NCBI GenBank assembly: GCA_963731635.1
Contig: CAVSWB010000001.1
Span: 73,679 to 137,678, forward strand
DNA from: an uncultured Chloroflexia bacterium
GTDB taxonomy: Bacteria > Chloroflexota > Limnocylindria > Limnocylindrales > CSP1-4
Direction: 5' to 3'
Length of the DNA stretch: 64,000 nucleotides
The position numbers and the translations under genes were made by a program. The first letter of the stretch is position 1. The number at the start of each line of letters is the position of its first letter. Below are positions 2,907-61,732 of this stretch, in pieces. Below the pieces are notes generated by a model. The model made no database searches, was not told where the DNA came from, and worked only from the letters and a program-made list of their open reading frames with translations.

Positions 2907-2928
2907 TCGCGCCCCCTTGGTCGGTCGA

Positions 2929-3012
2929 TCGTCGGCCACAGCCCCGAGTCGGCTACAGCCCCGAGTCGGCTCCAGCCCCGAGTCGGCAACAGCCCCGAGT
3001 CGGCAACAGCCG
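2929..3012. repeat. Tandem array of a 17-bp unit CAGCCCCGAGTCGGCNN: four full copies (2939-3006) plus partial copies at both ends
   Basis: Read directly from the sequence. Copies lie at 2939-2955, 2956-2972, 2973-2989 and 2990-3006. Each contains the palindrome CCGAnTCGG. The period is not a multiple of 3, and the array sits between divergent genes. Confidence 0.9.
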
Positions 3013-3050
3013 TGCCTATTGTCACCTGGGGCGGCGCGACCTGGCCACTG

Positions 3051-3078
3051 TTGACAGGACGCAGCATCGCGATATATC
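3051..3078 (+). promoter_or_regulatory. Candidate sigma-70-type promoter of the padR-like gene
   Basis: TTGACA at 3051-3056, a 16-nt spacer, then TATATC at 3073-3078. It lies in a locally AT-richer patch about 45 nt upstream of the GTG start. Confidence 0.5.
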
Positions 3079-3123
3079 GTGACGGTGCGCAACATAGCGC
3101 AGCACAACTCAGGAGAGACTAGC

Positions 3124-8746: not shown

Positions 8747-8856
8747 AGATCGCCAGGGTTGCGAGGCACCACGTGCGCAAGCAAGGGTTGGGCATGTCGA
8801 TATTCGAGCGAGCTTTCGCGGAACTGCGGCAGGCCAGCCGGGCGGAGGTCTGAACG

Positions 8857-9273
8857 ATGCTTCGTCAAGCCGACGGCATCTACGGTTTACAGGCTTACAT
8901 TCTCAAGACGATTGCCAGTCCGCGTCGCCTGGAGCTGATCCACTACCTGGCGGAGTCCGGCCCGGTCGAAGTGCGCTGTCTGGCCGAGCAGTTCGGCATG
9001 ACTCAGCCCGCGGCTTCGCAGCATCTATCTGCACTTCGGACGGCCGGCCTGGTCGAGCCGATCCGCGACGGGCGCGAGGTCCGCTATCGGCTCGTCGACC
9101 CCGAAATCGCGGCTGCCTGCAACCTCATGCGACAGGTGCTGATGCGCCGGATTGCCCACATGGGCGACATGGCTGCGTCGTTCTCCACTCCGACGCCCGA
9201 GTCCCAGGAGCTGACGCCATCGATGGCTGCGGGACCGTCACCCACGAACAGCGAGGAAGCATTTCATGGCTGA
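8857..9273 (+). CDS. ArsR/SmtB-family transcriptional regulator
   Basis: Core RRLELIHYLAESGPVEVRCLAEQFGMTQPAASQHLSALRTAGLVEPIRDGREVRYRL. GGAGG RBS. Two Cys residues (Cys41, Cys88). The 3' end overlaps the dsrE-like start by 8 nt. Confidence 0.9.
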   Translation: MLRQADGIYGLQAYILKTIASPRRLELIHYLAESGPVEVRCLAEQFGMTQPAASQHLSALRTAGLVEPIRDGREVRYRLVDPEIAAACNLMRQVLMRRIAHMGDMAASFSTPTPESQELTPSMAAGPSPTNSEEAFHG

Positions 9274-9628
9274 GAAGATCGTGATCATGGTCACACACGG
9301 GCTGGACCACCCGGAGCACGTTTCCATCCCGTTCGTGATGGCCGTTGCCGCGCTGGCCTCCGACGTGGAGGTCGTGATGGGGCTGCAGGCGGACGGCGTG
9401 GAAGTTGCGGTCAAGGGTGCCGCCGACTCCGTCACCGCGGAGGGCTTTCCCCCCTTGACCAAGCTCCTGGCGGACTACGCCGAATTGGGCGGCAGGTTGC
9501 TGCTCTGCGGCCCCTGCGTGAAGTCGCGCCAGATCGACGCGGCAGATCTGCTCGACAACTCCGAGGTCGTCGCTGCAGCCCGCTTCGTCGCCGAAATCAC
9601 CTCCGCCACCAACGCCCTCGTTTACTAG
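9266..9628 (+). CDS. dsrE: DsrE/DsrF-like sulfur-relay family protein
   Basis: About 120 aa. KIVIMVTHGLDHPEHVSIPFVMA...LLLCGPCVKSRQI...ARFV matches the DsrE-fold pattern (Pfam DsrE/DsrF family, from memory). Confidence 0.75.
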   Translation: MAEKIVIMVTHGLDHPEHVSIPFVMAVAALASDVEVVMGLQADGVEVAVKGAADSVTAEGFPPLTKLLADYAELGGRLLLCGPCVKSRQIDAADLLDNSEVVAAARFVAEITSATNALVY

Positions 9629-9639
9629 GAGTCACACCG

Positions 9640-9906
9640 ATGACAACCGCACTGACCAATTCCGAGATCGCCGCCGTCGCTGCAGCGAAGATCGTGGACG
9701 CCCGCGGAAGCGCCTGCCCCGGCCCCCTGCTCGAAGCCAAGAAGGGCATTGCCACCGTCTCGGTCGGCTCCGTGCTCGAGATCTGGTCGAGCGATCCGGT
9801 CACGAAGTCCGATATCGGCGCATGGTCGGGCAAAGTCGGACACGAGTTCCTGGGATTTGCGACCGCCGACGGCTACGACCGAGTCTTCGTGCGCCGCAAG
9901 AAGTAA
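9640..9906 (+). CDS. tusA: TusA/SirA-like sulfur carrier protein
   Basis: 88 aa with the diagnostic DARGSACPGPLLEAKK (Cys-Pro-x-Pro) motif. AGGAG RBS. Confidence 0.85.
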   Translation: MTTALTNSEIAAVAAAKIVDARGSACPGPLLEAKKGIATVSVGSVLEIWSSDPVTKSDIGAWSGKVGHEFLGFATADGYDRVFVRRKK

Positions 9907-9976
9907 CCGCCGATCTGCGGGCGCCCCACCTGCATCGGGTGCCCGCAGACCTTCTGGAATTGGCCCGGGAGAACGA

Positions 9977-10414
9977 ATGACTGGCACTGCGATAGAGGCG
10001 CCGACCACCAGGATGCTGGTGATCGCGACGCTCTTGTGCTCTTACCCGGGGATCGACGCGACGGGGCAGGCCCACATGGAATACCCGCCCAACACCTACG
10101 TCATCCCTACCCCCGACCCGGTCATGTTTCCCGAGTCCTTCTACATGCACTGCTTCGAAAAGGGCATCGACGGCATCCTGATCGCCTCGTGCGGAACTGA
10201 CAGTCCGTACGAAGGCTCGTATGAGCAACTCGCCGCACGCATCCCGAAGGTCTACGCCCAGATGAAGGCGCGGGGCATAAGCATCCGCCGCATCAAACTG
10301 ACGGCGATCTGCAGCGTCTGCACCAAGGCATTCCTCAAGGAAGTCGCCGACATGGAAGCCGTTCTGGCCGAGCTCGGGCCCGTCAGCGGCGAGATCGCGG
10401 CAGCAGGCGCGTGA
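9977..10414 (+). CDS. MvhD/FlpD-like (methyl-viologen-reducing hydrogenase delta subunit fold) protein, apparently Cys-depleted
   Basis: CSYPGIDATGQAHMEYPPNTYVI....GIDGILIASCG....ARGISIRRIKL follows the MvhD pattern. The start was trimmed to ATG 9977 (GGGAGA RBS), because the longer ORF overlaps tusA. The stop overlaps the next start. Confidence 0.65.
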   Translation: MTGTAIEAPTTRMLVIATLLCSYPGIDATGQAHMEYPPNTYVIPTPDPVMFPESFYMHCFEKGIDGILIASCGTDSPYEGSYEQLAARIPKVYAQMKARGISIRRIKLTAICSVCTKAFLKEVADMEAVLAELGPVSGEIAAAGA

Positions 10415-11799
10415 TGGAGCAGCACATGGATACCGACGTCCTCGTCGTCGGCGGCGGCATCGCCGGTCTGCAATCCGCCCTGGATCTGGCCGACCGCGGC
10501 TACAGCGTCCTGCTGGTGGAGCGCGAGGCCAGCATCGGCGGCAAGATGATCGCCCTCTCCAAGGTCTTCCCGACCATGGACTGCGCGAGCTGCATCACCA
10601 CACCGCGCATGTCTTCGGCGGCGCACCACGACAACATCACCACCTGGACCTACACCGACGTCGACCGCATCACGCCCGACGGCGACGCGTTCACGGCAAA
10701 GCTGACGCGCAAGGTCCGCTATGTCATCGAGGACCTGTGCATCGGTTGCCGGCTGTGCGAGTACGCCTGCCCGGTCGAACTGCCCCACGAATTCGAGGGC
10801 AACCTGGGAGCCCGCCGGGCGGTCTACATCCCGTTCGGAACGGCCATCCCGCAGAAGGCCCTGATCGACATCGATGCCTGCGTCTACTGCGGCAAATGCG
10901 AGAAAGCCTGCCCAACCGACGCCATCGACTTCGGTCAGGAACCGATCGAGGTCACAGCGAACGCTCGATCCGTCGTCCTCGCCACGGGCTTCGAGACCAC
11001 GCCCCTGGATGCCAAGAAGGAATACCAGGGCGGCAAGGCGGCCAATGTCATAAGCGCGCTGGACATGGAACGGCTCCTCTCCCCGAACGGCCCATACGGT
11101 CGTGTCCTTCGGCCGTCGGACGGCAAGATTCCCGAGAACGTCGCCTACGTTCAGTGCGCGGGTTCGCGGGACGAGACTCTCGGGGTGCCCTACTGCTCGC
11201 GCGTCTGCTGCATGTACGCCATCAAGCAGACGATGCTGCTCTCGGGCTCGCTGCCGCTCGCGGACATCACCGTCTACTACATGGACATCCGCGCCTTCGG
11301 CAAGGGCTACGAGCAGTTCTATCAGACCGCCCGATCGATGGGCATCAACTTCGTCAAGGCGAAGGTGGCCCGGATCGAGGAGCAGCCGGACGGCGATCTC
11401 AGACTCCGAGTCGAGATCATCGAAGAGGACGGCCGTGTCACCGAGAACGTCCACGACCTCGTCGTCCTGTCGGTCGGACTGAAGCCCGGCGACGATCCGC
11501 GGCGCTTCATCGGCGTCGATCTGGACCAGTACGGGTTCGTCGCCTCGCCGGATCCCAAGCTCGACGCAACGCTTACGAGCCTCCCCGGCGTCGCCGCCGC
11601 AGGCACGGCCATCGGCCCGAAGGACATCGTGGACACGATCATGGAAGCGAGCGCCGCCGCCACGAAAGTGGCGACTTACCTCGGCCCGCCGGCCAACTCC
11701 CCTGCCCCGCCCGACGACGGCCTGGACGTTGAAGTCCGTGAGATCAAGGCCGGCGACGCTCTCGCCGTGGCCGGACACGCGGAGGTGGCCCGTGGCTGA
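10411..11799 (+). CDS. hdrA: HdrA-like / QmoA-like FAD and iron-sulfur oxidoreductase (short paralog)
   Basis: FAD-binding VLVVGGGIAGLQSALDLADRGYSVLLVEREASIGGKM. Inserted 2x[4Fe-4S] ferredoxin motifs CIGCRLCEYACP and CVYCGKCEKACP. HdrA-type YVQCAGSRD...YCSRVCCMYAIK. Confidence 0.85.
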   Translation: MMEQHMDTDVLVVGGGIAGLQSALDLADRGYSVLLVEREASIGGKMIALSKVFPTMDCASCITTPRMSSAAHHDNITTWTYTDVDRITPDGDAFTAKLTRKVRYVIEDLCIGCRLCEYACPVELPHEFEGNLGARRAVYIPFGTAIPQKALIDIDACVYCGKCEKACPTDAIDFGQEPIEVTANARSVVLATGFETTPLDAKKEYQGGKAANVISALDMERLLSPNGPYGRVLRPSDGKIPENVAYVQCAGSRDETLGVPYCSRVCCMYAIKQTMLLSGSLPLADITVYYMDIRAFGKGYEQFYQTARSMGINFVKAKVARIEEQPDGDLRLRVEIIEEDGRVTENVHDLVVLSVGLKPGDDPRRFIGVDLDQYGFVASPDPKLDATLTSLPGVAAAGTAIGPKDIVDTIMEASAAATKVATYLGPPANSPAPPDDGLDVEVREIKAGDALAVAGHAEVARG

Positions 11800-13891
11800 G
11801 CAGCGCGCAAAGTCCGAGGCCGCGGACGAGGTAAGGATCGCGCCGGCGGCGACGCCCGAAGCTTGGCCGGCACTGGCCGAGAAGGTCGGCGTCTACGTCT
11901 GCCACTGCGGCGGCAACATCTCCGACGTCGTGGACGTTGACAGGGTCGCCACGGAGGCCGCCGGCCTCGACGGCGTGGCCGTTGCCCGCCACATCATGTT
12001 CATGTGCTCCGACGAAGGCCAGAAGGCGATCGTCGACGACATCGAGGCGCTCGGCCTGGATCGCGTCGTCGTTGCGGCGTGCACTCCCAAGCTCCACGAA
12101 GCCACTTTCCGTCGAGCGCTGCAGCGCGGCGGCATGAACCCATATCTGTTCCTGCCGGCGAACGTCCGCGAGCAGGCGAGCTGGGCTCATCCGCACAGCC
12201 CCAAGGCCGCGACAGAGAAGGCCAGTGCGCTGGTTCGGGCGGCGGTCGCCAAGGCCCAAATGCTCGAGCCGCTGGAAAAGGTCAGCGTCGCGGCCGTCCA
12301 CCGGTCTCTGGTCATCGGCGGCGGCGTGGCCGGTCTTCGGGCTGCGCTCGATCTCGCCCGTCAGGGCCTCGCGGTCGTGCTGGTGGAGAAATCGCCGTTC
12401 CTCGGCGGCAAGGCCACTCAACTGCACACGGTCTTCCCGACGGAGGATCCGGCACGGCCGCTTGTCCACCGCCTCATCGATCAGGTGAAGGCGGAGCCGA
12501 ATCTGACCGTCCTGACCAATACCGAGGTCGTCGGCCTGACCGGCTACGTCGGCGACTTCTCGATCACGCTGCGGACCACGCCGCGCGGCGTCGGCCCCGA
12601 ACTGGCAAATCCCGCGGCGGCGATGGCCGCCTGTCCGGTTCAGGTTGCCAACGAGTTCGACGACGGCATCAGCCGGCGCCGGGCCATCTACCAGCCATAT
12701 CCCGGCTCCGAGCCGAACCTGCCCGCCATCGACTGGAATTCCTGCACCCGCTGCGGCGAATGCGTCACGGCCGCCGGCGGGCGCGGCATCGATCTGGCGA
12801 GCGAGCCGCACGAAATCAAGATCGAGGCCGGGGCAATCGTCCTCGCCACGGGCTTCGACCACTACGAGCCGCGCGTCGGCGAGTACGGCTACGCCACCTC
12901 GCCGCGCGTCCTGACCCTGCCCCAGGTCCACCGCCTGCTCGATCCGGAAGGCCCGACTGCCGGCCGTCTCGAGATCGAAGGCCGCGTCCCCCGCTCCGTC
13001 GCCTTCATCCACTGTGTCGGCAGCCGCCAGATCGAAGGCGTTGACGAGCCGGGCCCCGACGGCAAGCTCCACGAGTACTGCTCGCGGGTGTGCTGCACGG
13101 CCACTCTCCAGGCCGCCAACGAACTCCGCAGGAAGTACCCCAAGACCGCGGTCTACGACCTCTACCGCGACATCAGGACCTACGGCCGCGATCAGGAGCC
13201 GTACTACGTCAACGCCTCCAAGGCCGGTGTCGTCTTCATGCGCTTCGCCAACGACGCCCGCCCCACGGTCCAACTGGCCGACGGCGGCGACTTTCCGCTC
13301 AAGGTGACTGTCACCGACACGCTCACCTTCGGCGCCGAGATCGAAGTCCCGGTCGATCTGGTCGTCCTGAGCGTCGGCGTGATGCCGCGCGACGTCGCCG
13401 GCTTCATCGACATGACCCATGCCCCCGTCGGCGCCGACGGCTTCCTGCTCGAGGTTCATCCGAAGCTTCGCCCGGTCGAGAGCGCCATCCCGGGTCTGCT
13501 CCTTGCCGGCACGGTCCAGGCGCCGATGGATATCACCGAGAGCACCTCGGCGGCCTCCGCGGCGGCGGCCAAGGTGACGGCCCTTCTCGCCAAAGATCAT
13601 GTCGAGATGGAGCCGTTCGTGGCCAAGGTGGACCCGTCGTTGTGCGACGGCTGCGGCTTATGCCTGGACGCCTGCCACTACGCCGGAGCGATCGCCCTTC
13701 AGGATGTCGAGATCGAGGATGGCGTCATCGAGAAACGGGCGTACGTGAACCCGGTGGCCTGCAAGGGCTGCGGTGCCTGCGTCCCGTCCTGTCCGGTCGC
13801 CGCCCTGGACGTGGCCGGCTGGGAGATCGACCAGTACAAGGCCATGATCGATGCGATCACGGCCCAGCCGCTGACCGCAGGAGCCCGCTGA
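11792..13891 (+). CDS. hdrA: HdrA-like / QmoB-like flavo-iron-sulfur oxidoreductase (long paralog)
   Basis: N-terminal VGVYVCHCGGNISDVVD domain. FAD motif LVIGGGVAGLRAALDLARQGLAVVLVEKSPFLGGK. FIHCVGSR...YCSRVCCTATL. C-terminal ferredoxin motifs CDGCGLCLDACH and CKGCGACVPSCP. The GTG at 11792 has a GGAGG RBS and overlaps the previous stop. Confidence 0.85.
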   Translation: MAEQRAKSEAADEVRIAPAATPEAWPALAEKVGVYVCHCGGNISDVVDVDRVATEAAGLDGVAVARHIMFMCSDEGQKAIVDDIEALGLDRVVVAACTPKLHEATFRRALQRGGMNPYLFLPANVREQASWAHPHSPKAATEKASALVRAAVAKAQMLEPLEKVSVAAVHRSLVIGGGVAGLRAALDLARQGLAVVLVEKSPFLGGKATQLHTVFPTEDPARPLVHRLIDQVKAEPNLTVLTNTEVVGLTGYVGDFSITLRTTPRGVGPELANPAAAMAACPVQVANEFDDGISRRRAIYQPYPGSEPNLPAIDWNSCTRCGECVTAAGGRGIDLASEPHEIKIEAGAIVLATGFDHYEPRVGEYGYATSPRVLTLPQVHRLLDPEGPTAGRLEIEGRVPRSVAFIHCVGSRQIEGVDEPGPDGKLHEYCSRVCCTATLQAANELRRKYPKTAVYDLYRDIRTYGRDQEPYYVNASKAGVVFMRFANDARPTVQLADGGDFPLKVTVTDTLTFGAEIEVPVDLVVLSVGVMPRDVAGFIDMTHAPVGADGFLLEVHPKLRPVESAIPGLLLAGTVQAPMDITESTSAASAAAAKVTALLAKDHVEMEPFVAKVDPSLCDGCGLCLDACHYAGAIALQDVEIEDGVIEKRAYVNPVACKGCGACVPSCPVAALDVAGWEIDQYKAMIDAITAQPLTAGAR

Positions 13892-14184
13892 TGGCCTCCC
13901 CGGAAAAGCCCCGGAGCAAGATGCTCGAGCTCAAAGAGCGGCGCGGCCCGGTGTCCCCGGCGCTCCTGGAGTCCGTTCGCCAGAACAACGCCGCCAAATC
14001 GGCGATCAAGAAGTCGCTTGCCGCGGGGCCGCTCACGGTTCCCGAGCTGGCGGAAGCATCGGGTCTGCCGACCAGGACCATCCTCTGGACCGTCACCGCC
14101 ATGCGCAAGTACGGCTCGGTCGTCGAGGACTCCACGGACGGTTCGTACGTCCGCTACGCCCTTGCCGCAAAGGATCCCCGCTGA
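13891..14184 (+). CDS. Small (97 aa) hypothetical protein, possibly winged-helix
   Basis: ATGA overlaps at both ends embed it in the operon. LTVPELAEASGLPTRTILWTVTAMRKYGSVVEDSTDGSYVRYAL looks like an HTH plus wing. No family was recognised. Confidence 0.55.
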   Translation: MASPEKPRSKMLELKERRGPVSPALLESVRQNNAAKSAIKKSLAAGPLTVPELAEASGLPTRTILWTVTAMRKYGSVVEDSTDGSYVRYALAAKDPR

Positions 14185-15353
14185 TGGCCGTGACCGTAGA
14201 TCCGACCCTTCTCCCCGAGATCCAGCGTTACGGCGCCTTCGATGTGGCCGCCTGCTTCAATTGCGGCAACTGCACAGCCGTCTGCCCGCTCAGCGATGAC
14301 AATGCCACGTTCCCGCGGCGGATCATCCGTTACGCCCAGGTGGGCATGAAGGCGGAGCTGCTCGCATCCAAGGAGCTGTGGACCTGCTACTACTGCGGCG
14401 AGTGCTCCGAGACGTGCCCGCGCCAGGCGGAGCCGGGTGAGTTCATGGCCGCGGCGCGCCGCTATGCCATCGCCAGCTACGACAAAACCCGGCTGGCACG
14501 AACGATGTACCTCCAGCCCGTCCTCGGCACCGCGATGGCCGTCATCCTCGCGGCCGTCTTCGCCCTGTTCATGTACGGCGCCCACGGCCCGCAGGACGGC
14601 ACGACGCTGGCGCTCTTCCAGTTCATTCCCTCCGAGTTCATCCACCTCCTCGGACTGGCGGTGATGATCATCGTCGGAGTCGCCGGGCTGGCCGGTCTGG
14701 CGATCATGTCGAGGCGCATTGCCCGCTCCGAAGGCGTCGGATTACGAACCATCTTCGGCGGACGCGCGGCGCTCCGGCGAAGCGGGCGCGCCCTCTGGGT
14801 CGCGCTCGGCATCGAGTCCATCGGTCAGCGACGCTATCGGAAGGACTGCGAAGCGGCGCAGGAGCCGACCGTCTGGTACCGGCGGCGCTGGCTTCTGCAT
14901 GCGCTAACGATGTGGGGTTTCCTGGGTCTCTTCGGTGCGACCATCGCCGACTACGGCCTGGAACTGCTCGGCATCAAGGCAACCGGCACCGCCGTCCCGA
15001 TCTGGTATCCGGTCCGCCTCCTCGGCACAGTCGCCGGCGCCATGCTCGTCTTCGGCGTGACGATGCTGATCCTCAATCGCCTCCAGAAGGCCAATCGGTC
15101 GGTCCGCGAGTCCAAGGCGGCGGATTGGACGCTCCTCTCGCTGCTGTGGCTCACCGGCGTAAGCGGCTTCGTCCTGGAGCTGGCTCTTTACCTGCCGCAA
15201 GCCCCGGCCGGGGGCTACTGGATGTTCCTCTTCCACGTTGCCGTGGCGATGGAACTGGTCCTGCTGGCCCCGTTCATGAAGCTCGCCCACGTGATCTACC
15301 GGCCGGTTGCGCTGTTCTTCTACGCCCTCAAGCCCGCGGCCGACGCCGGCTGA
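14184..15353 (+). CDS. QmoC / HdrC-HdrE-like membrane iron-sulfur protein (N-terminal 2x[4Fe-4S] domain fused to six TM helices with conserved His)
   Basis: CFNCGNCTAVCP and CYYCGECSETCP motifs, followed by six hydrophobic helices. These carry His residues (FIHLLG, LLHALTMWG, FLFHVAV, KLAHVIY) as in NarI/HdrE/DsrM-type cytochrome b subunits. Confidence 0.75.
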   Translation: MAVTVDPTLLPEIQRYGAFDVAACFNCGNCTAVCPLSDDNATFPRRIIRYAQVGMKAELLASKELWTCYYCGECSETCPRQAEPGEFMAAARRYAIASYDKTRLARTMYLQPVLGTAMAVILAAVFALFMYGAHGPQDGTTLALFQFIPSEFIHLLGLAVMIIVGVAGLAGLAIMSRRIARSEGVGLRTIFGGRAALRRSGRALWVALGIESIGQRRYRKDCEAAQEPTVWYRRRWLLHALTMWGFLGLFGATIADYGLELLGIKATGTAVPIWYPVRLLGTVAGAMLVFGVTMLILNRLQKANRSVRESKAADWTLLSLLWLTGVSGFVLELALYLPQAPAGGYWMFLFHVAVAMELVLLAPFMKLAHVIYRPVALFFYALKPAADAG

Positions 15354-15420
15354 CGCCGCTCGACGCAACCGAACGCTCGGCCGGCGTTCAGAATGGGCTT
15401 CCACGCACCCAGGAGAACGA

Positions 15421-15822
15421 ATGCGACTGCTCATCCCGACCAACGACGCCAACGGCGCCAGCGCCGAACTCTCCGGCCACTTCGGCCGCGCGCCGTTCTA
15501 TGCGATTGCCGACACCGAGGCCGACACGGTCGTCGTGGTGGAGAACCCGTCGGTCTCCCACGGACACGGTGGGTGCGTCCCCGCATCGCAGGCCTTCGGC
15601 GAGGGCGGCTACGACGCGGTCGTATGCCAGGGCATCGGCAGAGGTGCGATGGACCGGCTTGCCGAGGCCGGCGTTCCGGTGTACATGTCCGACGGACCCG
15701 ACGTGGCCTCGGCGATCGCGGCCTTCCGCCGCAGCTCGCTGCGCGTCGTCGCCTCTGAGGACGGCTGCTCCGGTTCGGGATCCAGATCCGGTTCGTGCGG
15801 CGGGCACGGACACGACAATTAG
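15421..15822 (+). CDS. NifB/NifX-family (dinitrogenase iron-molybdenum cofactor biosynthesis domain) protein with Cys/Gly/His-rich tail
   Basis: LSGHFGRAPFYAIADTE...VVVVEN...AVVCQGIGRGAMDRLAEAGVPVY matches the NifX/NifB-C domain pattern. The tail is CSGSGSRSGSCGGHGHDN. AGGAGAA RBS. Confidence 0.75.
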   Translation: MRLLIPTNDANGASAELSGHFGRAPFYAIADTEADTVVVVENPSVSHGHGGCVPASQAFGEGGYDAVVCQGIGRGAMDRLAEAGVPVYMSDGPDVASAIAAFRRSSLRVVASEDGCSGSGSRSGSCGGHGHDN

Positions 15823-15848
15823 CAACTGAGGATCGGAGAGGGCGGGAA

Positions 15849-16403
15849 ATGGCGACTAAGCGACGGAACAGAGGCGCGGGCCAGAGCGCCGCACCGGCAA
15901 CGCGCAGCAAGGCGGCGCCGGCCGCGCCGAACCGAGGCAGGCTCTATCTGGCGGTCGGCGGAGCGGTGGTCGCACTCGTGGCCGTGCTCGCGATTAGCTT
16001 CGTTGCTCTCGGCGGCGGCGGCTCCGGTCCCGCGCCGAGCACGGCGTCCGGTGAATCGATCGTTCAGGGCCAGGGCGGCCACTGGACCAGCGTGACCCCC
16101 GACCGGCTCGCCGAGATGCTGACGCACAAGGACTTCACGTTCGTGAACGTCAAGACGCCCTACATCGGCGAGATCGACGGCACGGACCTCTACATTCCTT
16201 ACGATCAGCTGTCAGCCCGGGCGAGTCAGCTTCCGGCCGACAAGTCGGCCAGGATCCTGGTCTATTGCCGCAGCGGGGTCGAAAGCGCCCAGGCCGCCCA
16301 GACGCTACTGAACCTCGGCTATACGAACGTCTGGAATCTCGACGGCGGCATGAACGCCTGGCAATCGTCGGGGCGGACTCTCGTCCAGAAGAACCGGACC
16401 TGA
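15849..16403 (+). CDS. Membrane-anchored rhodanese-domain sulfurtransferase
   Basis: Basic N-terminus, one TM helix (LYLAVGGAVVALVAVLAISFVAL), then a rhodanese domain with active-site loop YCRSGVES and the ending GGMNAW. Confidence 0.85.
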   Translation: MATKRRNRGAGQSAAPATRSKAAPAAPNRGRLYLAVGGAVVALVAVLAISFVALGGGGSGPAPSTASGESIVQGQGGHWTSVTPDRLAEMLTHKDFTFVNVKTPYIGEIDGTDLYIPYDQLSARASQLPADKSARILVYCRSGVESAQAAQTLLNLGYTNVWNLDGGMNAWQSSGRTLVQKNRT

Positions 16404-54039: not shown

Positions 54040-54708
54040 ATGACCACCACCCACCGCGCCGAGACAGCCGCCCGGTCCGCCGAAATCCGCCTGCCGCACG
54101 AAGAACGGGAGGTCCAGCGTTTCGGCGCCATGCGCCTGCTCCCCATCGCCCTGGCCGCCGAAGCGAGGCAGGAAAGCTGCCAGCTGCTCAACGGCATCCT
54201 CGCCGACAGCATGATCCTGTACGCCATGTACAAGAAACATCATTGGCTCGTCGCCGGGCCGACCTTCTATCAGCTTCATCTGCTCTTCGACAAGCACGCG
54301 GGCGAGCAACTCGAGCTGATCGACCTGCTGGCGGAACGCGTTCAGACCCTGGGCGGCGTGGCGGTCGGCGACCCGCGACATGCCGCCGAACTGACGTCGA
54401 TCGAGCGACCGCCCGACGGCGCCGAAGACGTGCCTTCCATGATTCACCGGCTGCTCGACGCCCACGAAATCGTGATCACCAATGTCCGGCATGCCATCGA
54501 CCGGACCGAGGCATCCGAGGATTGGGGCACGAACGACCTGCTCATGAGCGACGTCCTGCGCCGCAACGAGCTGCAGGTCTGGTTCGTGGCCGCTCACCTC
54601 GTCGACATCCCGCTCGATGCGTCGCGCGACCGGGCCGCCGGCGAGCCCGGCGCACGAGAGCGGGTGGCCGTTGGTCCCGGTCACCCGCGGAGGTCCGGGC
54701 GGGCGTAG
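54040..54708 (+). CDS. dps: Dps-family DNA-binding ferritin-like protein
   Basis: LYAMYKKHHWLVAGPTFYQLHLLFDKHAGEQLELIDLLAERV....LLMSDVLRRNELQVWF, with N- and C-terminal extensions. Confidence 0.85.
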   Translation: MTTTHRAETAARSAEIRLPHEEREVQRFGAMRLLPIALAAEARQESCQLLNGILADSMILYAMYKKHHWLVAGPTFYQLHLLFDKHAGEQLELIDLLAERVQTLGGVAVGDPRHAAELTSIERPPDGAEDVPSMIHRLLDAHEIVITNVRHAIDRTEASEDWGTNDLLMSDVLRRNELQVWFVAAHLVDIPLDASRDRAAGEPGARERVAVGPGHPRRSGRA

Positions 54709-54894
54709 CGTCGCGGTAGCGGCTCGCGGGGCTGGTCAAGCAGGCACACCCGCCCCACGCGCCAGTCGGCCTGAATAGGAGGCTTTCAGGCAGGACTCAG
54801 CCCGAGCGGCGAACCTGCCCGACGAATACCCCAGGCGGACACGAAGACGGACGATCTGGTCGCGACATCATCACCGAAAGAGCCGCGCCCCCGG

Positions 54895-55752
54895 TTGCGG
54901 CCGTGGACGCGGCTGCGCCGGCGACTCCAAACCAGGCGGCGCCTTCGTTCTGCTGCGCCCTTCGCCGCGACGGCGCTGATCGCCGTCCTGGCCGTTGAGG
55001 CCTACGGCGCGGCCACGCCGGGTCCGCGCCCCTTGACCCAGCAGGACGTCGCCACGAGCGTGGCTCACGCGCTCGCATCCGTTACACCGCCGCCGGCCTT
55101 CTCGGAAGCTGCCTATGCGGCCGTCCGTCCCTCGGTTGTCGTGATTCAAACGCAGGGGACGACCGCCTCGGCGTCGCCGAGCTCCGGCGGCCAGCCGGCA
55201 AGCTCCCCGACCGCCGGCGGATCCCTCGGCAGCGGCGTCGTGATCGACACCAGCGGCGACATCCTGACCGCCCTGCACGTTGTCGCGAACGCCACCTCGA
55301 TCACGGTCACGTTCGCCGATGGAACCCAATCGCCGGCCCAGGTCCAGACCTCGCAGGCGCAGAACGACATCGCGGTCCTGAAGGCCAGCCAGCCGCCGGC
55401 GAATCTCCAGCCCGCCACGCTCGGCAACCCGCGCAGCGTCCAGGTCGGCAGCGAGGCTTTCGTGATCGGCAATCCGTTCGGCCTGCCCGGCTCGATCAGC
55501 GCCGGCGTCGTATCGGGGCTCGATCGGTCGTTCCAGCTTCCCAACAACGGTCCGACGCTGCAGGGCCTCATCCAGGTCGATGCCGCGGTCAACCCGGGCA
55601 ACTCGGGCGGTCCGCTGGTCAACCGGGATGGCCAGGTCATCGGCATCGTCGCCGGCTTGATCAATCCCACCAACCAGGACGTGTTCATCGGCATCGGGCT
55701 TGCGGTTCCCATCGACGTGGCGGGCGGCGCGGCTGGTTTGCCGCTCGACTAG
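54895..55752 (+). CDS. Trypsin-like serine protease (S1C/HtrA-like, no PDZ domain)
   Basis: TM anchor. Catalytic His (ILTALHVV), Asp (NDIAVLKA) and Ser (GNSGGPLVN). Confidence 0.85.
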
Positions 55753-55776: not shown

Positions 55777-56790
55777 GTGCGTACACTGGCGGTTTCGGAG
55801 CCCACGGCGCCGATGGAGCGCCTGCTCTACGAGGTCAAGAAGGTCATCGTCGGCCAGGACCACCTCCTGGAGCGGCTGGCCGTGGCATTGCTCGCGCGCG
55901 GCCACTTGCTGGTCGAAGGCGTTCCGGGGCTGGCCAAGACGATGGCCATCAAGACGCTCGCGGAAGCCATCGGCGGCGAGTTCAAGCGGATCCAGTTCAC
56001 GCCGGACCTGGTGCCGGCCGACCTGATCGGGACGCGCATCTACAACCAGAAGACCGGCGAGTTCAACACGTCGCTTCGGGCCGGTCTTCACGAACCTGCT
56101 GCTCGCCGACGAGATCAACCGCGCCCCGGCCAAGGTCCAGAGCGCGCTTGCTCGAGGTCATGCAGGAGCGCCAGGTCACGATCGGTCGCGAGACCCACGC
56201 GGTGCCCGACCCGTTCCTCGTGCTGGCCACCCAGAACCCGATCGAGACCGAGGGCACCTACGCCCTGCCCGAGGCCCAGGTCGACCGGTTCATGCTCAAG
56301 GTGCTGGTCGGCTACCCGAGCGCCAACGAGGAGTTCGTCATCGTCGAGCGCATGACCGGGCGCCTCGAGCCGGTGCAGGAGGTGCTCTCGACCACGGAAG
56401 CTGCTCGACCTGCAGCAGCAGGCCGATCGCGTCTACGTCGACCCGGCGCTGATGGAGTACGCCGTGCGACTCGCGACGGCCACGCGGGCGCCCCGAGCGC
56501 ACGGCATGCCGGACCTGGAGCGTTACATCACTTACGGCGCCAGCCCGCGAGCCTCGATCAACCTGATCCTCACCGCCCGTGCCCTGGCCTTCGTCCGTGG
56601 CCGCGACTACGCGCTGCCGCAGGACGTGCTCGACATGGCTCGCGACGTGATGCGCCACCGCCTGGTGCTCTCGTTCGAGGCGCTGTCGGACAACGTGACC
56701 GCCGACGACGTCCTGACCATGATCCTCAAGCGGATTCCGGTGCCGGTGGTGCCGCTCCGAGAGCGCTCCGATGCTCGTCCCAGAGCCTGA
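55777..56790 (+). pseudogene. MoxR-family AAA+ ATPase gene interrupted by three +1 frameshifts (near 56077, 56149 and 56400)
   Basis: Conserved MoxR sequence is split over three frames. The pieces are ...[15 protein letters not shown]...GEFNTSL (frame 1), [23 protein letters not shown] (frame 2), [50 protein letters not shown] (frame 0), and [25 protein letters not shown]...[11 protein letters not shown] (frame 1). Confidence 0.7.
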
Positions 56791-57842
56791 AGCCGTGGTC
56801 TGGACGCCGGCCACTCCAGCGGGACGATGCGAATCCCGGCCCGGAGAAGCGGCGCGGCCCCAGGCGGCTGGCGTCGGCGTCGTTCCGTCCACTCGGGCCG
56901 CGGCGCCTTCCCCGCGCCCGTCTCGACGCCGCGGGGACGGCCCGCGTCCGCTCGCCCGAGCAGATCCTCCAGCGCCTCGACTGGAAGGTCATCCGGCGCC
57001 TCGACGGCCTGCTCCAGGGCGACTACCGCAGCCTGTTCTGCGGCAACGGCATCGATCTCGTCGACCTGCGCGAGTACCAGCCGGGCGACGACGTTCGATA
57101 CATCGACTGGAACGTCACGGCTCGCATGGACACGCCGTACGTTCGCGAATACGTCGAAGATCGCGAGATCACGGCCTGGTTCCTGCTCGATCTCAGCCCG
57201 TCGGTGGATTTCGGCACCGTGGAGACCGAGCGGGTCAAGCGGACCGTCCTGATCGATTTCGTGGCGACGCTGGCACGGCTTCTGACCCGGCGCGGCAATC
57301 GCGTCGGTGCGATGTTCTACGGCAGCTCCGTGGAACTCACCGATGCCGGCCCGCGGCGGCCGCGATCCAGGTCCTGCGGCTGATCGACGAGCTGCTTCAC
57401 CAGCCGAGCCCCGAACAGGCTCCGTTCACGGATCTGTCGCCGCTCCTTGCCGCCGGCCAGAGCGTCATCAAGCGGCGCTCGCTGGTATTCATCGTCTCGG
57501 ACTTCATCAGCGTGCCGGGCTGGGAGCGGCCGCTGAGCCTGCTCAACCGGCGCCACGAGGTCGTCGCGGTCCGGCTGACCGATCCGCGCGAGATCGAACT
57601 GCCGGACGTTGGGCCGGTGATCATGGAGGACGCCGAGACGGGCGAGCAGCTCTACGTGGACACCCACGACGCGGGATTCCGGCGCCGCTTCGAGGAGGCG
57701 GCCCGCCGCCGCGGACGCCGAGATGTCCGCGGCGTTCAAGCGATGCCGGCGTCGAGGCGCTGTCGCTGTCCACCGACGAGGACCTCGTGCGCTCCATCGT
57801 CCGGATGGCCACGACCCGCCGCCGGCCAGGCGCAGGTAGCCC
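56771..57842 (+). pseudogene. DUF58-family gene (MoxR partner) interrupted by at least five frameshifts
   Basis: The DUF58 core [51 protein letters not shown] is in frame 0. It continues as MPARGGR (frame 1), [11 protein letters not shown]...VFIVSDF (frame 2), DAEMSAAFKR (frame 0) and AGVEALSLSTDEDLVRSIVRMA (frame 1). The ATG at 56771 is in frame 2. The exact end is uncertain. Confidence 0.65.
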
Positions 57843-58862
57843 ATGTCGTTCATCTGGCCCCCACTGCTTCTATCGCTGCTCCTGATCCCGGTCGGGGATA
57901 CTGCTCTACCGATTCCTCGATACGCGACGGCGCCGACGGTTGACGGACGTACGGCGGTCCGAGCGCTGGCGCAGGGCGGTCAGGCTCGACGCCGCGTCCG
58001 CGATCGGGCGCCGGCGGCGCTGCTGCTCGGCGGCCTGGCGGTGCTTTCCGTGGCGATGGCGCGACCACAGGCCGTGGTCAGCCTGCCGCAGGAGCAAGGC
58101 ACGGTCATCCTCGCCTTCGACGTGTCCGCGAGCATGGCGGCCACCGACCTCCAGCCGACGCGGATGGCCGCCGCCAAGGCCGCGGCCAGGGACTTCGTCG
58201 CGCGCCAGCCGGCCGGCGTCACGATCGGCGTCGTGGCCTTCAGCGACTCGGGCGTGTCGGTCCAGACGCCCACGACCGACCAGGCAACCGTGCTGGCCGC
58301 GATCGACAGGCTGACTCCGCAACGCGGCACGTCACTGGCGGAGGGCATCCTCGCTTCGCTCAAGGTCATAACCGTCGCCGAGGCCGGCCCGTACGCCAAC
58401 AACTACTACACCAAGCCCGCGGCCGGCGCAACACCGTCGCCGTCGCCTACGCCCGTGCCAGCCGGGAACCCACGCGCCGGCGGCCATCGTCCTGTTCAGC
58501 GACGGGGAGAACAACGAATCCCCGGATCCGCAGACGGCTGCCCAGGCGCCGCCGACCAGGGCGTGCGGATCTACACGGTCGGCATCGGGAGCACCGCCGG
58601 CGCGACCGTGACCGTCAGCGGCTTCCAGCTCCACACGCAGCTCGACGCTGCCACCCTCCAGCAGATCTCCCAGACGACCGGCGGCACCTACTTCGCCGCG
58701 ACCGACGTCGCTCAGCTGCACGCGGTCTACGACAACCTCGACACGGCGGTCGTCATCCAGCCACAGCTGACGGAGATCACGGCGATCTTCGCCGGCGTGG
58801 GCCTGGTACTGCTGATCGGGGGCGCCTTGACTTCGCTCCTGTGGCTCGGGCGACCGACATGA
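57843..58862 (+). pseudogene. VWA-domain (BatA-like) membrane protein gene with locally out-of-frame patches
   Basis: The ORF stays open in frame 0, but two conserved stretches sit in frame 1. These are GILLYRFLDTRRRRR (about 57897-57945) and THAPAAIVLFSDGENNESPDPQTAAQA (about 58468-58548). The MIDAS motif DVSASM and the C-terminal TM are in frame 0. Confidence 0.6.
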
Positions 58863-58876
58863 CCGGACGGCAATAG

Positions 58877-59982
58877 ATGGACTTCCTGTGGTCTGACTTC
58901 CTGGTGCTTCTCCTGCTGCTGCCGGCGATGGCGGCGCTGTACGTCTGGGCGATGCGGCGGCGCCGGCCGGCGGGACTGCGCTACTCGAGCCTAGCGCTGG
59001 TCCGCGAAGCGGCGCCGGGATCCTCTCGCCTGCGGCGCCACCTGCCCTTCGTGCTCCTCCTGGCGGCGTTCGGCGGCCTGGTGGTGGCGCTTGCGCGGCC
59101 GGTGGTGGTCGCTGAGCGTGCCCACCAATCAGACCACGATCATCCTCACCATCGACGTGTCCGGCAGCATGTGCTCGACCGACATCCCGCCGAGCCGGAT
59201 CCAGGCGGCGGAGTCGGCGGCCGCGGCATTCATCAAGAGCCAGCCGGCCGCGGACGCGGATCGGGATCGTCGCCTTCAGCAGCTTCGCCGAAGTGGTCCA
59301 GGCGCCCACGGCCGACAGGACGGTCCTTCTCGACGCGCTGGGCAGCCTCGCCACGGGCCAGCGAACGGCCATCGGCGATGGCATCCTGGCCTCCATCGAC
59401 GCCATATCCGAGGTCGATCCCGCCGTCGCGAAGAGCCAGACCGACACCTCGACCGGGCCCGCCCCGACGCCGGTGCCGCCGGGCGACTACGCCCCCGACA
59501 TCGTCGTCCTGCTCACCGACGGCGTGAACAACACCGGCACGGCGCCGCTGGACGCTGCTCAGCAAGCTGCCGATCGTGGTGTCCGCGTCTACACGATCGG
59601 CTTCGGGACCGCCAACGGCGGCGCCCTCGATCCGACCTGCGCGTCGCAGCTCATCGGCCGCGAGCCTGGCGGCGGCGCGGGTGCCTTCGGCGGTGGTTTC
59701 GGCGGCGGTGGCGGGTTCGGTGGCGGGTTCGGCCAGGGCGGCGGTGGCGGGTTCCCGAGAGGGATCGACGAGGCGACCCTGCAGCAGATCGCCGCCAAGA
59801 CCGGCGCCAAGTACTACCCGGCGGAGAACGCGGCCCAGCTGAACGGCGTCTTCCAGAGCCTCCCGACCAACTTGATCACCAAGCATGAGACCACGGAGGT
59901 CAGCGTCGTCTTCGTCGGGATCGGCGCGTTGCTGGCTGCGCTGGCAGCGCTGCTCGGCAAAGCCTGGCGCCCGCTGCCGTAA
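58877..59982 (+). pseudogene. VWA-domain (BatB-like) membrane protein gene with two +1 frameshifts (near 59111 and 59255) and a Gly/Phe-rich insert
   Basis: N-terminus MDFLWSDFLVLLLLLPA...ALARPVVV (frame 2); LSVPTNQTTIILTIDVSGSM...FIKSQPAA (frame 0); RIGIVAFSS...VVLLTDGVNNTG...VRVYTIGFG...C-terminal TM (frame 1). Confidence 0.65.
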
Positions 59983-59991
59983 GAACCGGGC

Positions 59992-60453
59992 CTACCGCCG
60001 GGCGGGGCCGGACTTCCAGGACGTGTATCTCGGCGGCCATTCGTCCGGACCGCCTCGAACTCCCAGGACGGCCGCCTCTATGTCGAATTCGAGGAGCCGG
60101 TAGGTCTCGTCGACCTCGAAATACCAGCCCGAGGCCACCCGATCGTAGACCGCCCCGGCCGCCACTGGCGCGGCCCGGCCCCGCACGGAGAATTCGCTCG
60201 GGGCCGCAGGATCCCGATGGGAGTGGAGGGCGTAGCGGCCGTCCTGTTCCAGGTCGGTGCGCTTCGCCGACTTCAGGATGAACGCGTACAGCACCCCGTC
60301 GACCACGCGTATCCAGATTGGATGGATGCGAGGCGGATCGTCGCCGCGGACGGTCGCCAGGAAGCCCTCGTCGATCTCTCCCCGATGGAGAAGCCGCGCG
60401 CCTCCGGCCGCCAGATCCGGCGCCGCAGCGGCGAATTCGGCCCATGTCGCCAT
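59992..60453 (-). CDS. Pyridoxamine 5'-phosphate oxidase (PPOX)-fold family protein
   Basis: FLATVRGDDPPRIHPIWIRVVDGVLYAFILKSAKRTDLEQDGRYALH. GAGGAG RBS precedes the ATG at 60453. Confidence 0.7.
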   Translation of the reverse strand: MATWAEFAAAAPDLAAGGARLLHRGEIDEGFLATVRGDDPPRIHPIWIRVVDGVLYAFILKSAKRTDLEQDGRYALHSHRDPAAPSEFSVRGRAAPVAAGAVYDRVASGWYFEVDETYRLLEFDIEAAVLGVRGGPDEWPPRYTSWKSGPARR

Positions 60454-60619
60454 GTTCCGCTCCTCGAATGCCCGCGGCGGGCTACCGGCAGCGTCCGGCA
60501 CGAGATTCGCGAGTCCGTTTCGGGACAAGGCCGCGAGCCGCTCAACCTCGCCAGTATCGCCTGTTCGTCGGGTCCCTCCGAGCGGCCGGGCAGGCTCGCT
60601 CGTTCGGTGCGCCGCCCGG

Positions 60620-61732
60620 TCAGCCCCCGGCGGCGAGGCCGCGGGCCAGGAGCTCTTCGTACCGCTCCGGATCCACATTGCCGCCGCTCAGGATGGCCAC
60701 GACACGGCCCGTCGCCGGCAGCTCGTCCTCGTGGAATAGCCACGCGGCCAGGGTGGTGGCGCCCGAGGGCTCAAGTACCAGGCGCGCTTCGCGCGAGGCG
60801 CGAACCATGGCTCGAGCTATCTCGTCCTCGGTCACGGTCACGATGCCGTCGAGATGGCGGCGCATCAGCTCGAACGGGATCTGCCCAACGTGAGTTGCTC
60901 GCTGGCCGTCGGCGATCGTTCGGCCGACCACGTCGGCGGGCCAGGTGACGATATGACCGCTGGCGAGGGACTCGCGAGCGTCGGCGGCGAGTACCGGCTC
61001 GACGCCGAGCACGACCGCGTCGGGCCTGAGCGACTTGACCGCCACCGCTACACCGGCGGCGATCCCGCCGCCCCCGACCGGCACCAGGACGGTGAGCGGC
61101 GGAGTGGCGCGCTCTGCGCCGGCCGGCGGCGCACCGCTTGTGTCGATGGCGGCGATCTGTTCGACGATTTCGAGTCCCACGGTGCCCTGGCCCGTGATCG
61201 TCGCGGCATCGTCGTACGGCGCCACGATCGACAGGCCCTCGCTCGCCGCCAGCTCGGTCGCCCGCACGGCACGCTCTTCGCTCGAAGGTCCGACGAAGAC
61301 GATTTCGGCGCCGTCCGCCCGGACCCGATCGACCTTGATCCGCGGCGCGTTCGATGGCATCACGATGACGGCCCGGACCCCCAGCAGCCGGGCCGCCCGG
61401 GCGACGCCCTGGGCGTGGTTCCCGCTGGAGTAGGCGGCGACCCCGACGGCGCGGCGTTCGGCCGGCAAGGTGGCGATGTTGTAGTAGGCGCCGCGCAGTT
61501 TGAAGGCGCCAATCGGCTGCAAAGACTCGGGCTTCAGCCAGGCCCGAGTTCGGCCGGTGCTGTCGCCGTCCAGCGGAGAGCCGAACGGAAGCAACGGCGT
61601 GCGCACCGTCACACCGCGCAGGAGCTCGGCGGCCGCGCGGATCCGGACAAGCGTCACCGGGACCGGTGGGTCGAGCCGCGCATCTGATCGAGAGCCGGAC
61701 GAGGTCCCCGGCTCTGTTTGTCGTGGGTCCAT
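60620..61732 (-). CDS. PLP-dependent threonine/serine dehydratase (threonine ammonia-lyase family, no obvious ACT domain)
   Basis: PLP-lysine motif QPIGAFKLRGA, SSGNHAQGVA, and the glycine loop VPVGGGGIAAG. Confidence 0.85.
   Translation of the reverse strand: MDPRQTEPGTSSGSRSDARLDPPVPVTLVRIRAAAELLRGVTVRTPLLPFGSPLDGDSTGRTRAWLKPESLQPIGAFKLRGAYYNIATLPAERRAVGVAAYSSGNHAQGVARAARLLGVRAVIVMPSNAPRIKVDRVRADGAEIVFVGPSSEERAVRATELAASEGLSIVAPYDDAATITGQGTVGLEIVEQIAAIDTSGAPPAGAERATPPLTVLVPVGGGGIAAGVAVAVKSLRPDAVVLGVEPVLAADARESLASGHIVTWPADVVGRTIADGQRATHVGQIPFELMRRHLDGIVTVTEDEIARAMVRASREARLVLEPSGATTLAAWLFHEDELPATGRVVAILSGGNVDPERYEELLARGLAAGG

What the first reader, a model, noticed from the sequence alone, without database searches (positions are those of the whole stretch)
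55777..59982. MoxR-DUF58-VWA-VWA operon carries at least a dozen single-base frameshifts, almost all insertions, and I noticed none elsewhere in the window
Reading the conserved motifs across frames places shifts at about these positions:
- MoxR: 56077, 56149, 56400.
- DUF58: at least one between 56771 and 56950, then 57342, 57361-57364, 57713, 57744.
- First VWA gene: 57897, about 57945-57965, 58467, 58548.
- Second VWA gene: 59111, 59250-59257.

Where I could resolve them, each shift is a single extra nucleotide. The clearest exception is near 58548, which looks like a one-base loss. The second event of the first VWA patch (about 57945-57965) is unresolved: it is either one deletion or two further insertions. 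The three MoxR insertions sum to +3, so that gene starts and ends in the same frame. In the first VWA gene the out-of-frame patches are compensated.

Between the shifts the protein sequence is almost perfectly family-typical and has no in-frame stops. That is unexpected for an old pseudogene and is more typical of insertion-biased read errors in a poorly polished stretch. If the shifts are real, the whole aerotolerance-type operon was inactivated very recently, or it is expressed only through unusual recoding. Either way, automated annotation of this region will be wrong.
Basis: seen in the sequence. Interest (0 to 1): 0.6.

Follow-up and report, generated by a model that had tools for sequence, protein, structure and literature searches.

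The report
Frameshift cluster, probable assembly error
A four-gene MoxR-DUF58-VWA-VWA operon in this uncultured soil bacterium's contig carries at least 16 tiny frame-breaking insertions in 3.2 kb; they look like a local sequencing-consensus error, not biology, so the public gene calls here are wrong.

Summary
Between 56,075 and 59,253 the MoxR, DUF58 and two VWA/BatA genes carry at least 16 frame-shifting events: 14 single-base insertions, one 2-nt insertion before the DUF58 stop, at least one net +1 in the DUF58 N-terminus, and one single-base deletion at 58,546. I found none in the other ~60 kb.

The closest relative is L081, 86% DNA identity and syntenic over 18 kb. It and ten more distant relatives have all four genes intact. 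Reading through the shifts restores full-length proteins (336/351/338/367 aa) with complete Pfam domains and no stop codons.

The repaired genes show no relaxed constraint. dN/dS against L081 is 0.07-0.12, against 0.04-0.26 for the intact flanking genes. The window lineage has 24 amino-acid changes and the L081 lineage 27.

The indel spectrum (at least 15 insertions to 1 deletion, all 1-2 nt, not at homopolymers) is unlike real bacterial pseudogenes. The window comes from a single 1.42-Mb metagenome contig, which implies a long-read assembly, and its broken ORFs occur nowhere else in the protein collection.

Best explanation: a local consensus or polishing failure (about 0.88). Genuine very recent decay is about 0.07 and recoding about 0.01. 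Raw reads could not be found, so this is inferred, not proven.

The parts
54895..55752 (+). Trypsin-like serine protease gene. It is intact and sits directly upstream of the operon in all relatives.
   Evidence: 285-aa ORF. It is syntenic and 91% identical to the L081 gene that carries PF00089/PF13365. It has no frame-breaking indel against L081.
55777..56790 (+). MoxR-family AAA+ ATPase gene, broken by three +1 insertions (~56075-77, 56147-50, 56392-95). It starts and ends in the same frame.
   Evidence: Searches place the shifts. The raw ORFs carry AAA_3 profile positions 1-56 and 82-131 separately. The read-through is 336 aa with AAA_3 1-131/131 at 215 bits plus AAA_lid_2. It is 95.5% identical to L081 and the same length as the top database hits.
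56771..57839 (+). DUF58 gene. Net +1 in the variable N-terminus (56809-56953), +1 at 57343, 57366-68, 57712-14 and 57745, and +2 at ~57823-28 just before its stop (TAG 57837-39).
   Evidence: The raw ORFs carry DUF58 profile positions 1-90 and 94-214 in different frames. The read-through is 351 aa with DUF58 1-215/216 at 226 bits.
57843..58862 (+). First BatA/VWA gene. +1 at 57891-98, 57945-46, 57967-69 and 58462-68, and -1 at 58546. The shifts cancel, so a 339-aa ORF stays open but holds two out-of-frame patches (about 57894-57968 and 58464-58546).
   Evidence: The raw ORF matches only VWA positions 2-98/174. The read-through matches VWA 2-173/174 plus BatA_N. The chimeric ORF is deposited as a protein (P0121).
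58877..59982 (+). Second BatA/VWA gene, with +1 at 59110-11 and 59251-54. The last ~730 nt are clean.
   Evidence: BatA_N and the VWA pieces fall in separate raw ORFs. The read-through is 367 aa and 91% identical to L081.
56075..59254 (.). The affected interval: about 3.2 kb holding every frame-shifting event in the 64-kb window.
   Evidence: for the events. for their absence elsewhere.

Best explanation
The extra bases are most likely errors in the deposited consensus sequence, not mutations in the organism. The window belongs to a 1.42-Mb contig of an uncultured Chloroflexota-like bacterium from a soil or peat type metagenome, and a contig that long implies a long-read assembly. In one ~3.2-kb stretch the consensus or polishing step failed. 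Possible causes are a local drop in usable coverage, a patch built from very few reads, or reads from co-occurring relatives or strains piled onto this conserved operon. The failure left about 20 spurious 1-2-nt insertions and one deletion. The organism itself most likely has an intact, functional MoxR-DUF58-BatA/VWA-BatA/VWA operon like all its relatives.

Shown: the indels exist in the sequence, they are confined to this stretch, and the underlying genes look fully constrained.

Inferred: that the indels are technical, and which step produced them.
For: 1. Clustering. At least 16 events lie in 3.2 kb and none breaks a gene in ~55 kb of other coding DNA (P about 1e-20).
2. No decay. The read-through proteins are full length, have no stops and carry complete domains.
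3. No relaxed constraint. dN/dS against L081 is 0.066-0.124 for the operon and 0.035-0.263 for nine intact flanking genes. A relative-rate count gives 24 amino-acid changes on the window lineage and 27 on the L081 lineage; at sites invariant in the outgroups the counts are 2 and 5.
4. Spectrum. At least 15 insertions to 1 deletion, all 1-2 nt. Real bacterial pseudogenes show an insertion-to-deletion ratio of 0.76-0.94 and a broad length range (PMC6054270). Binomial P is 3e-5 to 2e-4.
5. Provenance. Four exact ORF products from the window were found in the protein collection (two from the broken operon, plus Dps and GGDEF). All map to a single contig of 1,419,204 bp held by NCBI and ENA, and the two broken ORFs are singleton clusters. 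Several of the related genomes found are Nanopore-only MAGs from Microflora Danica (MFD) with contigs of similar size. That pipeline uses metaFlye plus one round of Medaka (PMC12313526).
6. Known artefact class. Indel-driven false pseudogenes are documented for Nanopore-only MAGs and get worse at low coverage (PMC8103633).
7. Relatives are in frame. L001-L006, L081/L082, short contigs in four peat, bog or soil metagenome runs, and 118 of 118 metagenome contigs with identical flanks at site 56148.
Against: No raw reads of the source assembly could be found, and the window's own record is masked. There is therefore no direct evidence on depth or on read support for the extra bases.

The insertions are not at homopolymers. 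The longest run near a site is 2 bases or fewer for 10 of 13 sites, which matches background. An insertion-dominated residue is also not the textbook error profile of polished Nanopore or PacBio assemblies.

Why the failure is confined to this operon is not explained. Identity to L081 is not unusual across the interval.

My specific idea that both alleles of strain SNPs were kept side by side is not statistically supported: 9 of 14 sites fit, against a null of 0.45, P = 0.12.

The closest relative is only 86% identical, so a real and very recent event in this species cannot be excluded by comparison.
Confidence: 0.88

Rival explanations
1. Genuine, very recent inactivation. The whole operon became dispensable in this population and picked up about 20 real small insertions before any substitutions or stop codons accumulated.
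For: The indels are in the deposited sequence. They hit all four genes of one functional unit and spare the flanking genes, as expected if one operon lost its function. No same-species sequence is available to contradict this.
Against: Neutral decay long enough to give about 20 indels should also give many more substitutions, since true prokaryotic mutations are mostly substitutions (PMC12424758). None are seen: dN/dS and lineage-specific changes are normal and there are no stops. The insertion-to-deletion ratio of at least 15:1, with only 1-2-nt events, contradicts the deletion-leaning spectrum of real pseudogenes (PMC6054270; P about 3e-5). The affected interval (56075-59254) starts 300 nt inside MoxR and ends 730 nt before the end of VWA2, so it tracks a stretch of DNA and not gene boundaries.
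Confidence: 0.07
2. The operon is expressed through recoding. This would mean repeated +1 ribosomal frameshifting, transcriptional slippage, or another correction at each site.
For: The frames stay open between shifts. In MoxR and VWA1 the shifts cancel, so start and stop are in the same frame.
Against: The 13 resolvable sites share no slippery motif, no in-frame stop or rare codon, and no homopolymer tract for slippage. None of the shifts is conserved in any relative: and 118 of 118 contigs are in frame at site 56148. At least 16 sequential low-efficiency events would yield essentially no protein (inference).
Confidence: 0.01
3. Sub-mechanism of the artefact. The consensus was built from two co-occurring haplotypes or related species. 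At some SNP sites it kept both alleles in tandem, which reads as a +1 insertion.
For: Many sites read as two alternative, often synonymous, bases side by side: CT[T/C], GA[A/G], GA[T/C], GG[G/A], [G/A]TG, [G/C]TG. At site 56148 the window has GCTTG, where relatives have GCTG, GCTC, GTTG or GCTT. Several related Chloroflexota MAGs come from single samples. This operon is the only one of the two window stretches tested that shares 31-mers with other metagenomes.
Against: Random insertions give the same appearance 45% of the time. The observed 9 of 14 gives P = 0.12. Event density does not follow the conservation level of the four genes. Reads are not available.
Confidence: 0.3

Closest known systems
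Indel-induced false pseudogenes in long-read (especially Nanopore-only) metagenome-assembled genomes
   Same: Small indels break otherwise well-conserved genes. They are absent from relatives and come with no accompanying substitutions. The source is a megabase-scale metagenome contig. The phenomenon and its dependence on coverage are described in PMC8103633 and PMC9262707.
   Different: The usual residue is spread along the genome and concentrated in homopolymers. Here it is confined to 3.2 kb, is almost entirely insertions, and is not at homopolymers.
MoxR-DUF58-VWA (BatA/BatB-like) 'aerotolerance-type' gene clusters
   Same: The gene order is MoxR AAA+ ATPase, DUF58, then two membrane-anchored BatA_N+VWA proteins. 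After read-through all domains are full length. The DxSxS metal-site motifs are visible (DVSASM, DVSGSM). The same four genes follow a trypsin-like protease in every relative examined.
   Different: No TPR-type BatC/D/E genes follow the operon; the next gene is a PALP enzyme on the other strand. The function in Chloroflexota has not been tested.
Genuine bacterial pseudogene clusters, as in reductive genomes
   Same: There are multiple frameshifts per gene, and several adjacent genes are affected.
   Different: Real pseudogenes show more deletions than insertions, a broad range of indel lengths, and raised non-synonymous change (PMC6054270). None of these is seen here.

Membership tests
Assembly/consensus artefact (long-read MAG indel errors) | The extra or missing bases are not supported by the raw reads of the source sample. 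| not testable with these tools
   No public run holds the window. The runs found for the operon share only 5-8% of words and come from relatives. The window's record is masked.
Assembly/consensus artefact (long-read MAG indel errors) | The affected genes are otherwise intact: full length, no stops, normal constraint. | tested here: met
Assembly/consensus artefact (long-read MAG indel errors) | The sequence comes from a long-read assembly. | tested here: inconclusive
   The contig is 1,419,204 bp, from an uncultured soil or peat lineage, held by NCBI and ENA. Several related genomes are Nanopore MFD MAGs. The platform itself is not on record here.
Assembly/consensus artefact (long-read MAG indel errors) | The errors are concentrated in homopolymers. 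| tested here: not met
   The longest run near the sites matches background; only one site lies in a 4-base run.
Genuine pseudogene | Raised dN/dS, excess lineage-specific substitutions, or premature stops in the original frame. | tested here: not met
   dN/dS is 0.066-0.124 against 0.035-0.263 in the flanking genes. Lineage changes are 24 against 27. There are no stops.
Genuine pseudogene | An indel spectrum typical of bacterial mutation: deletions at least as common as insertions, and mixed lengths. | tested here: not met
   At least 15 insertions to 1 deletion, all 1-2 nt. P about 3e-5 against the ratio in PMC6054270.
Programmed frameshifting / recoding | A shift site with a slippery or stimulatory motif, conserved among relatives. 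| tested here: not met
   No common motif. All relatives are in frame.
MoxR AAA+ ATPase (AAA_3 / AAA_lid_2) | A complete AAA_3 domain with Walker A and B motifs, plus the lid domain. | tested here: met
   The read-through matches AAA_3 1-131/131 at 215.6 bits and AAA_lid_2 7-72/74. GVPGLAKT and LLADEINR are visible. The sequence as deposited does not meet this.
DUF58 | A full-length PF01882 match. | tested here: met
   The read-through matches 1-215/216 at 225.7 bits. In the raw sequence the match is split across two frames.
BatA/BatB-type VWA membrane proteins | An N-terminal BatA_N segment plus a VWA domain with a DxSxS metal site. | tested here: met
   Both read-through proteins match BatA_N 1-77/77 and VWA. 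DVSASM and DVSGSM are present.

The most novel reading that the evidence does not exclude
The insertions are real. Either a localised, insertion-only mutational burst very recently hit a 3.2-kb tract spanning one operon in this Chloroflexota population, or the operon is decoded across many +1 sites by an unknown correction mechanism.
Probability: 0.04. Interest if true: 0.7.

Novelty: not a real feature. Interest (0 to 1): 0.1.

Why it matters
As biology it most likely does not matter: the organism probably has an ordinary, intact MoxR-DUF58-VWA-VWA operon.

It matters as a data-quality flag. The public protein collection already holds a truncated 192-aa MoxR fragment and a 339-aa VWA protein with two out-of-frame patches from this contig. 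Four genes of this genome would also be scored as missing or as pseudogenes.

It also shows that long-read metagenome contigs can contain short, dense patches of non-homopolymer insertion errors inside otherwise clean sequence. Genome-wide quality scores would not reveal such patches.

Tried and rejected
- **Raw reads.** Two searches of public runs found only distant relatives for the operon and nothing for 40-50 kb. Looking up the window's own protein returned nothing because the record is masked.
- **A same-species relative.** The best MoxR hits in 5.8 billion protein clusters are 95% identical. The closest contig, L081, is 86% identical in DNA. No same-species comparison was possible.
- **The 'both SNP alleles kept' mechanism.** I tested it against a random-insertion simulation. 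It fitted 9 of 14 sites against a null of 0.45 (P = 0.12), so it is not supported as stated.
- **Homopolymer or motif-specific error.** There is no enrichment of runs and no shared motif.
- **An unusual identity profile.** I checked whether the interval looked like a recombinant or chimeric patch against L081. It does not; mismatch is 7-16% throughout, apart from the variable DUF58 N-terminus.
- **A crude GC3 hidden-Markov frame scan of the whole window.** It was too noisy to call frameshifts. I replaced it with ORF tiling plus Pfam scans and the L081 comparison.
- **Chen et al. 2009 on substitution-to-indel ratios.** The paper is not held in the library.
Full report
**What is in the sequence.** The window has about 68% G+C. 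In 55,777-59,982 the three forward frames each carry pieces of four recognisable genes. I aligned intact orthologues to the window with a frameshift-aware protein-to-DNA alignment (L004, L081). I also aligned the DNA with 11 relatives and pairwise with the closest one. These agree on the following events:

| Gene | Events |
|---|---|
| MoxR (55777-56790) | +1 at ~56075-77, 56147-50, 56392-95 |
| DUF58 (56771-57839) | net +1 within 56809-56953; +1 at 57343, 57366-68, 57712-14, 57745; +2 at ~57823-28 |
| VWA1 (57843-58862) | +1 at 57891-98, 57945-46, 57967-69, 58462-68; -1 at 58546 |
| VWA2 (58877-59982) | +1 at 59110-11, 59251-54 |

- The DUF58 N-terminus is variable and aligns poorly, so the net +1 there could be 1 to 5 events totalling 7 nt.
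- The +2 in DUF58 lies just before its stop codon (TAG 57837-39).
- The minimum is 16 events; about 20 if the N-terminal ones are counted separately.
Its unresolved event is two insertions, and it missed the 2-nt insertion at ~57825.
- The raw ORFs carry only halves of domains: AAA_3 positions 1-56 and 82-131, and DUF58 positions 1-90 and 94-214, each in different ORFs.

**Is it confined to the operon?** Yes.
- I tiled the window with its best ORFs and scanned 50 stop-to-stop ORFs from 1-45.5 kb against Pfam. No domain is split between ORFs, and single-domain families match over nearly their whole profile.
- For 45.5-64 kb there is a syntenic relative, L081, a 118.5-kb peat-metagenome scaffold with 86% DNA identity.
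- In the pairwise alignment with L081, no indel of a length not divisible by three breaks a conserved gene of the window outside the operon:
  - The one at 54254 lies in the window's intact 222-aa Dps gene, and there L081 is the broken copy.
  - Three lie in the N-terminal part of ORF 59992-60678 (-), where L081 has no called gene.
  - One lies upstream of the start codon L081 uses for NuoE.
  - The rest are intergenic.
- With 16 events in 3.2 kb and none in about 52 kb of other coding DNA, a uniform rate is excluded (about 1e-20).

**What the genes are.** Reading through the shifts gives four proteins:
- A 336-aa MoxR AAA+ ATPase, with AAA_3 matched 1-131/131 and AAA_lid_2.
- A 351-aa DUF58 protein, matched 1-215/216.
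- Two BatA_N+VWA membrane proteins of 338 and 367 aa, with DVSASM and DVSGSM metal-site motifs.

The lengths match the orthologues (336/351/338/363 aa in L081). Identity to L081 is 95.5%, 85.5%, 89% and 91%, with no stop codon in the restored frames. The same order, trypsin-like protease then MoxR, DUF58, VWA and VWA, is intact in L001-L006 and in L081/L082. This is an ordinary 'aerotolerance-type' MoxR-VWA cluster.

**Is there any sign of decay?** No.
- Pairwise dN/dS against L081 is 0.066 for MoxR, 0.098 for the DUF58 core, 0.124 for VWA1 and 0.095 for VWA2. Nine intact flanking genes range from 0.035 to 0.263.
- Using ten outgroups to polarise the differences, 24 amino-acid changes fall on the window lineage and 27 on the L081 lineage. 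At sites invariant in the outgroups the counts are 2 and 5.
- True prokaryotic mutations are mostly substitutions (stated in PMC12424758). A tract that had drifted long enough to gain about 20 indels should therefore show many extra substitutions and some stops. It shows none.

**Is the indel spectrum biological?** It does not look so.
- Curated bacterial pseudogenes show 300 insertions to 396 deletions with a wide length range. A mutation-accumulation experiment cited there shows 16 to 17 (PMC6054270).
- Here there are at least 15 insertions to 1 deletion, all of 1-2 nt. Binomial P is 3e-5 to 2e-4.
- The sites are not at homopolymers. Only one lies in a 4-base run and the rest match background. 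Slipped-strand mutation is therefore also an unlikely source.

**Where the sequence comes from.**
- Four exact ORF products from the window were found in the protein collection: two from the broken operon, plus Dps and GGDEF. All map to one contig of 1,419,204 bp held by NCBI and ENA, and the two broken ORFs are singleton clusters.
- Megabase contigs from uncultured soil or peat Chloroflexota imply long-read assembly.
- Several of the related genomes found are Nanopore-only Microflora Danica (MFD) MAGs with contigs of similar size. That pipeline uses metaFlye and a single round of Medaka (PMC12313526). I could not confirm that the window belongs to that project.
- False pseudogenes caused by indels are a documented property of Nanopore-only MAGs and depend on coverage (PMC8103633; PMC9262707).

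**Relatives.**
- Contigs of related populations in four peat, bog or soil runs all 'leave out' the extra base wherever they cross sites 56075-77, 56147-50, 56400 and 59252.
- A scan of public metagenome contigs for the exact flanks of site 56148, allowing either spacing, returned 118 contigs. All have the in-frame 4-nt spacing; only the window has 5 nt.
- These are other species, since the best MoxR hit is 95% identical. They show that the shifts are not a conserved recoding feature, but they cannot by themselves prove an artefact.

**Mechanism.** The best-supported reading is a local failure of consensus or polishing in a long-read metagenome contig. I could not determine the cause.
- Many sites look like two alternative alleles kept side by side, for example CT[T/C], GA[A/G], GA[T/C], GG[G/A] and [G/A]TG. 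This suggests a consensus built from mixed haplotypes.
- A simulation of random insertions produces the same appearance 45% of the time. The observed 9 of 14 is not significant (P = 0.12), so I keep this only as a hypothesis.
- The interval has no unusual identity profile against L081.
- The affected stretch starts 300 nt inside MoxR and ends 730 nt before the end of VWA2. It follows a stretch of DNA and not gene boundaries, which fits a technical patch better than selection acting on an operon.

**Rivals.**
- Genuine, very recent inactivation (about 0.07) would need an insertion-only burst with no substitutions.
- Recoding (about 0.01) would need at least 16 non-conserved, motif-less shift sites to be decoded in series.

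Both would be refuted by reads that lack the extra bases. Both would be revived by unanimous read support.

**Limits.**
- No reads of the source sample were available.
- The nearest relative is a different species.
- The number of events in the DUF58 N-terminus is uncertain.
- Substitution-type errors in the same stretch cannot be detected at this divergence.

**Verdict.** This is most likely not a real biological feature, and its value is as an annotation and assembly-quality flag.

Noticed in passing
L081:7486-8153 versus window 54040-54708: The relative's Dps/ferritin-like gene is split into two called ORFs of 92 and 116 aa by a 1-nt difference at window 54254. The window's copy is an intact 222-aa ORF. 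In this case the short-read scaffold, not the window, carries the frameshift.
   Followed up: partly
L081:8173-8997; window junction ~54711-54747: L081 has an extra SMP-30/gluconolactonase-like (SGL) gene between Dps and the protease. The window lacks it.
   Followed up: no
window 8854-16403 (+): A long same-strand cluster: ArsR regulator, DsrE-like, TusA, MvhD/FlpD-like, two HdrA-like flavo-iron-sulfur proteins (462 and 699 aa), a small ORF with no Pfam match that looks like a winged-helix protein by eye, an Fe-S/NarI-like membrane protein, a NifX-like protein and a rhodanese. It looks like a heterodisulfide-reductase-type sulfur or electron-transfer module. All ORFs are intact.
   Followed up: partly
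window 59640-59760: The second VWA protein has a glycine-rich low-complexity insert (GGGFGGGG repeats). It is 15 nt longer than in L081, and the difference is in frame.
   Followed up: no
window 57843-58862 and 55777-56355: The chimeric 339-aa VWA ORF and the truncated 192-aa MoxR ORF are present as protein entries (P0121, P0122) in the public collection. The mis-annotation has already propagated.
   Followed up: yes
window 2394-3128 (-): An ORF with a full-length Imm5-like putative immunity-protein domain (PF21805, 1e-37). No obvious toxin partner was examined.
   Followed up: no
window 59992-60678 (-) versus L081:14173-14655: The window has a 228-aa ORF here that is not called in L081. The aligned part differs by several 1-2-nt indels, so the gene may be degenerate or absent in the relative.
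   Followed up: no
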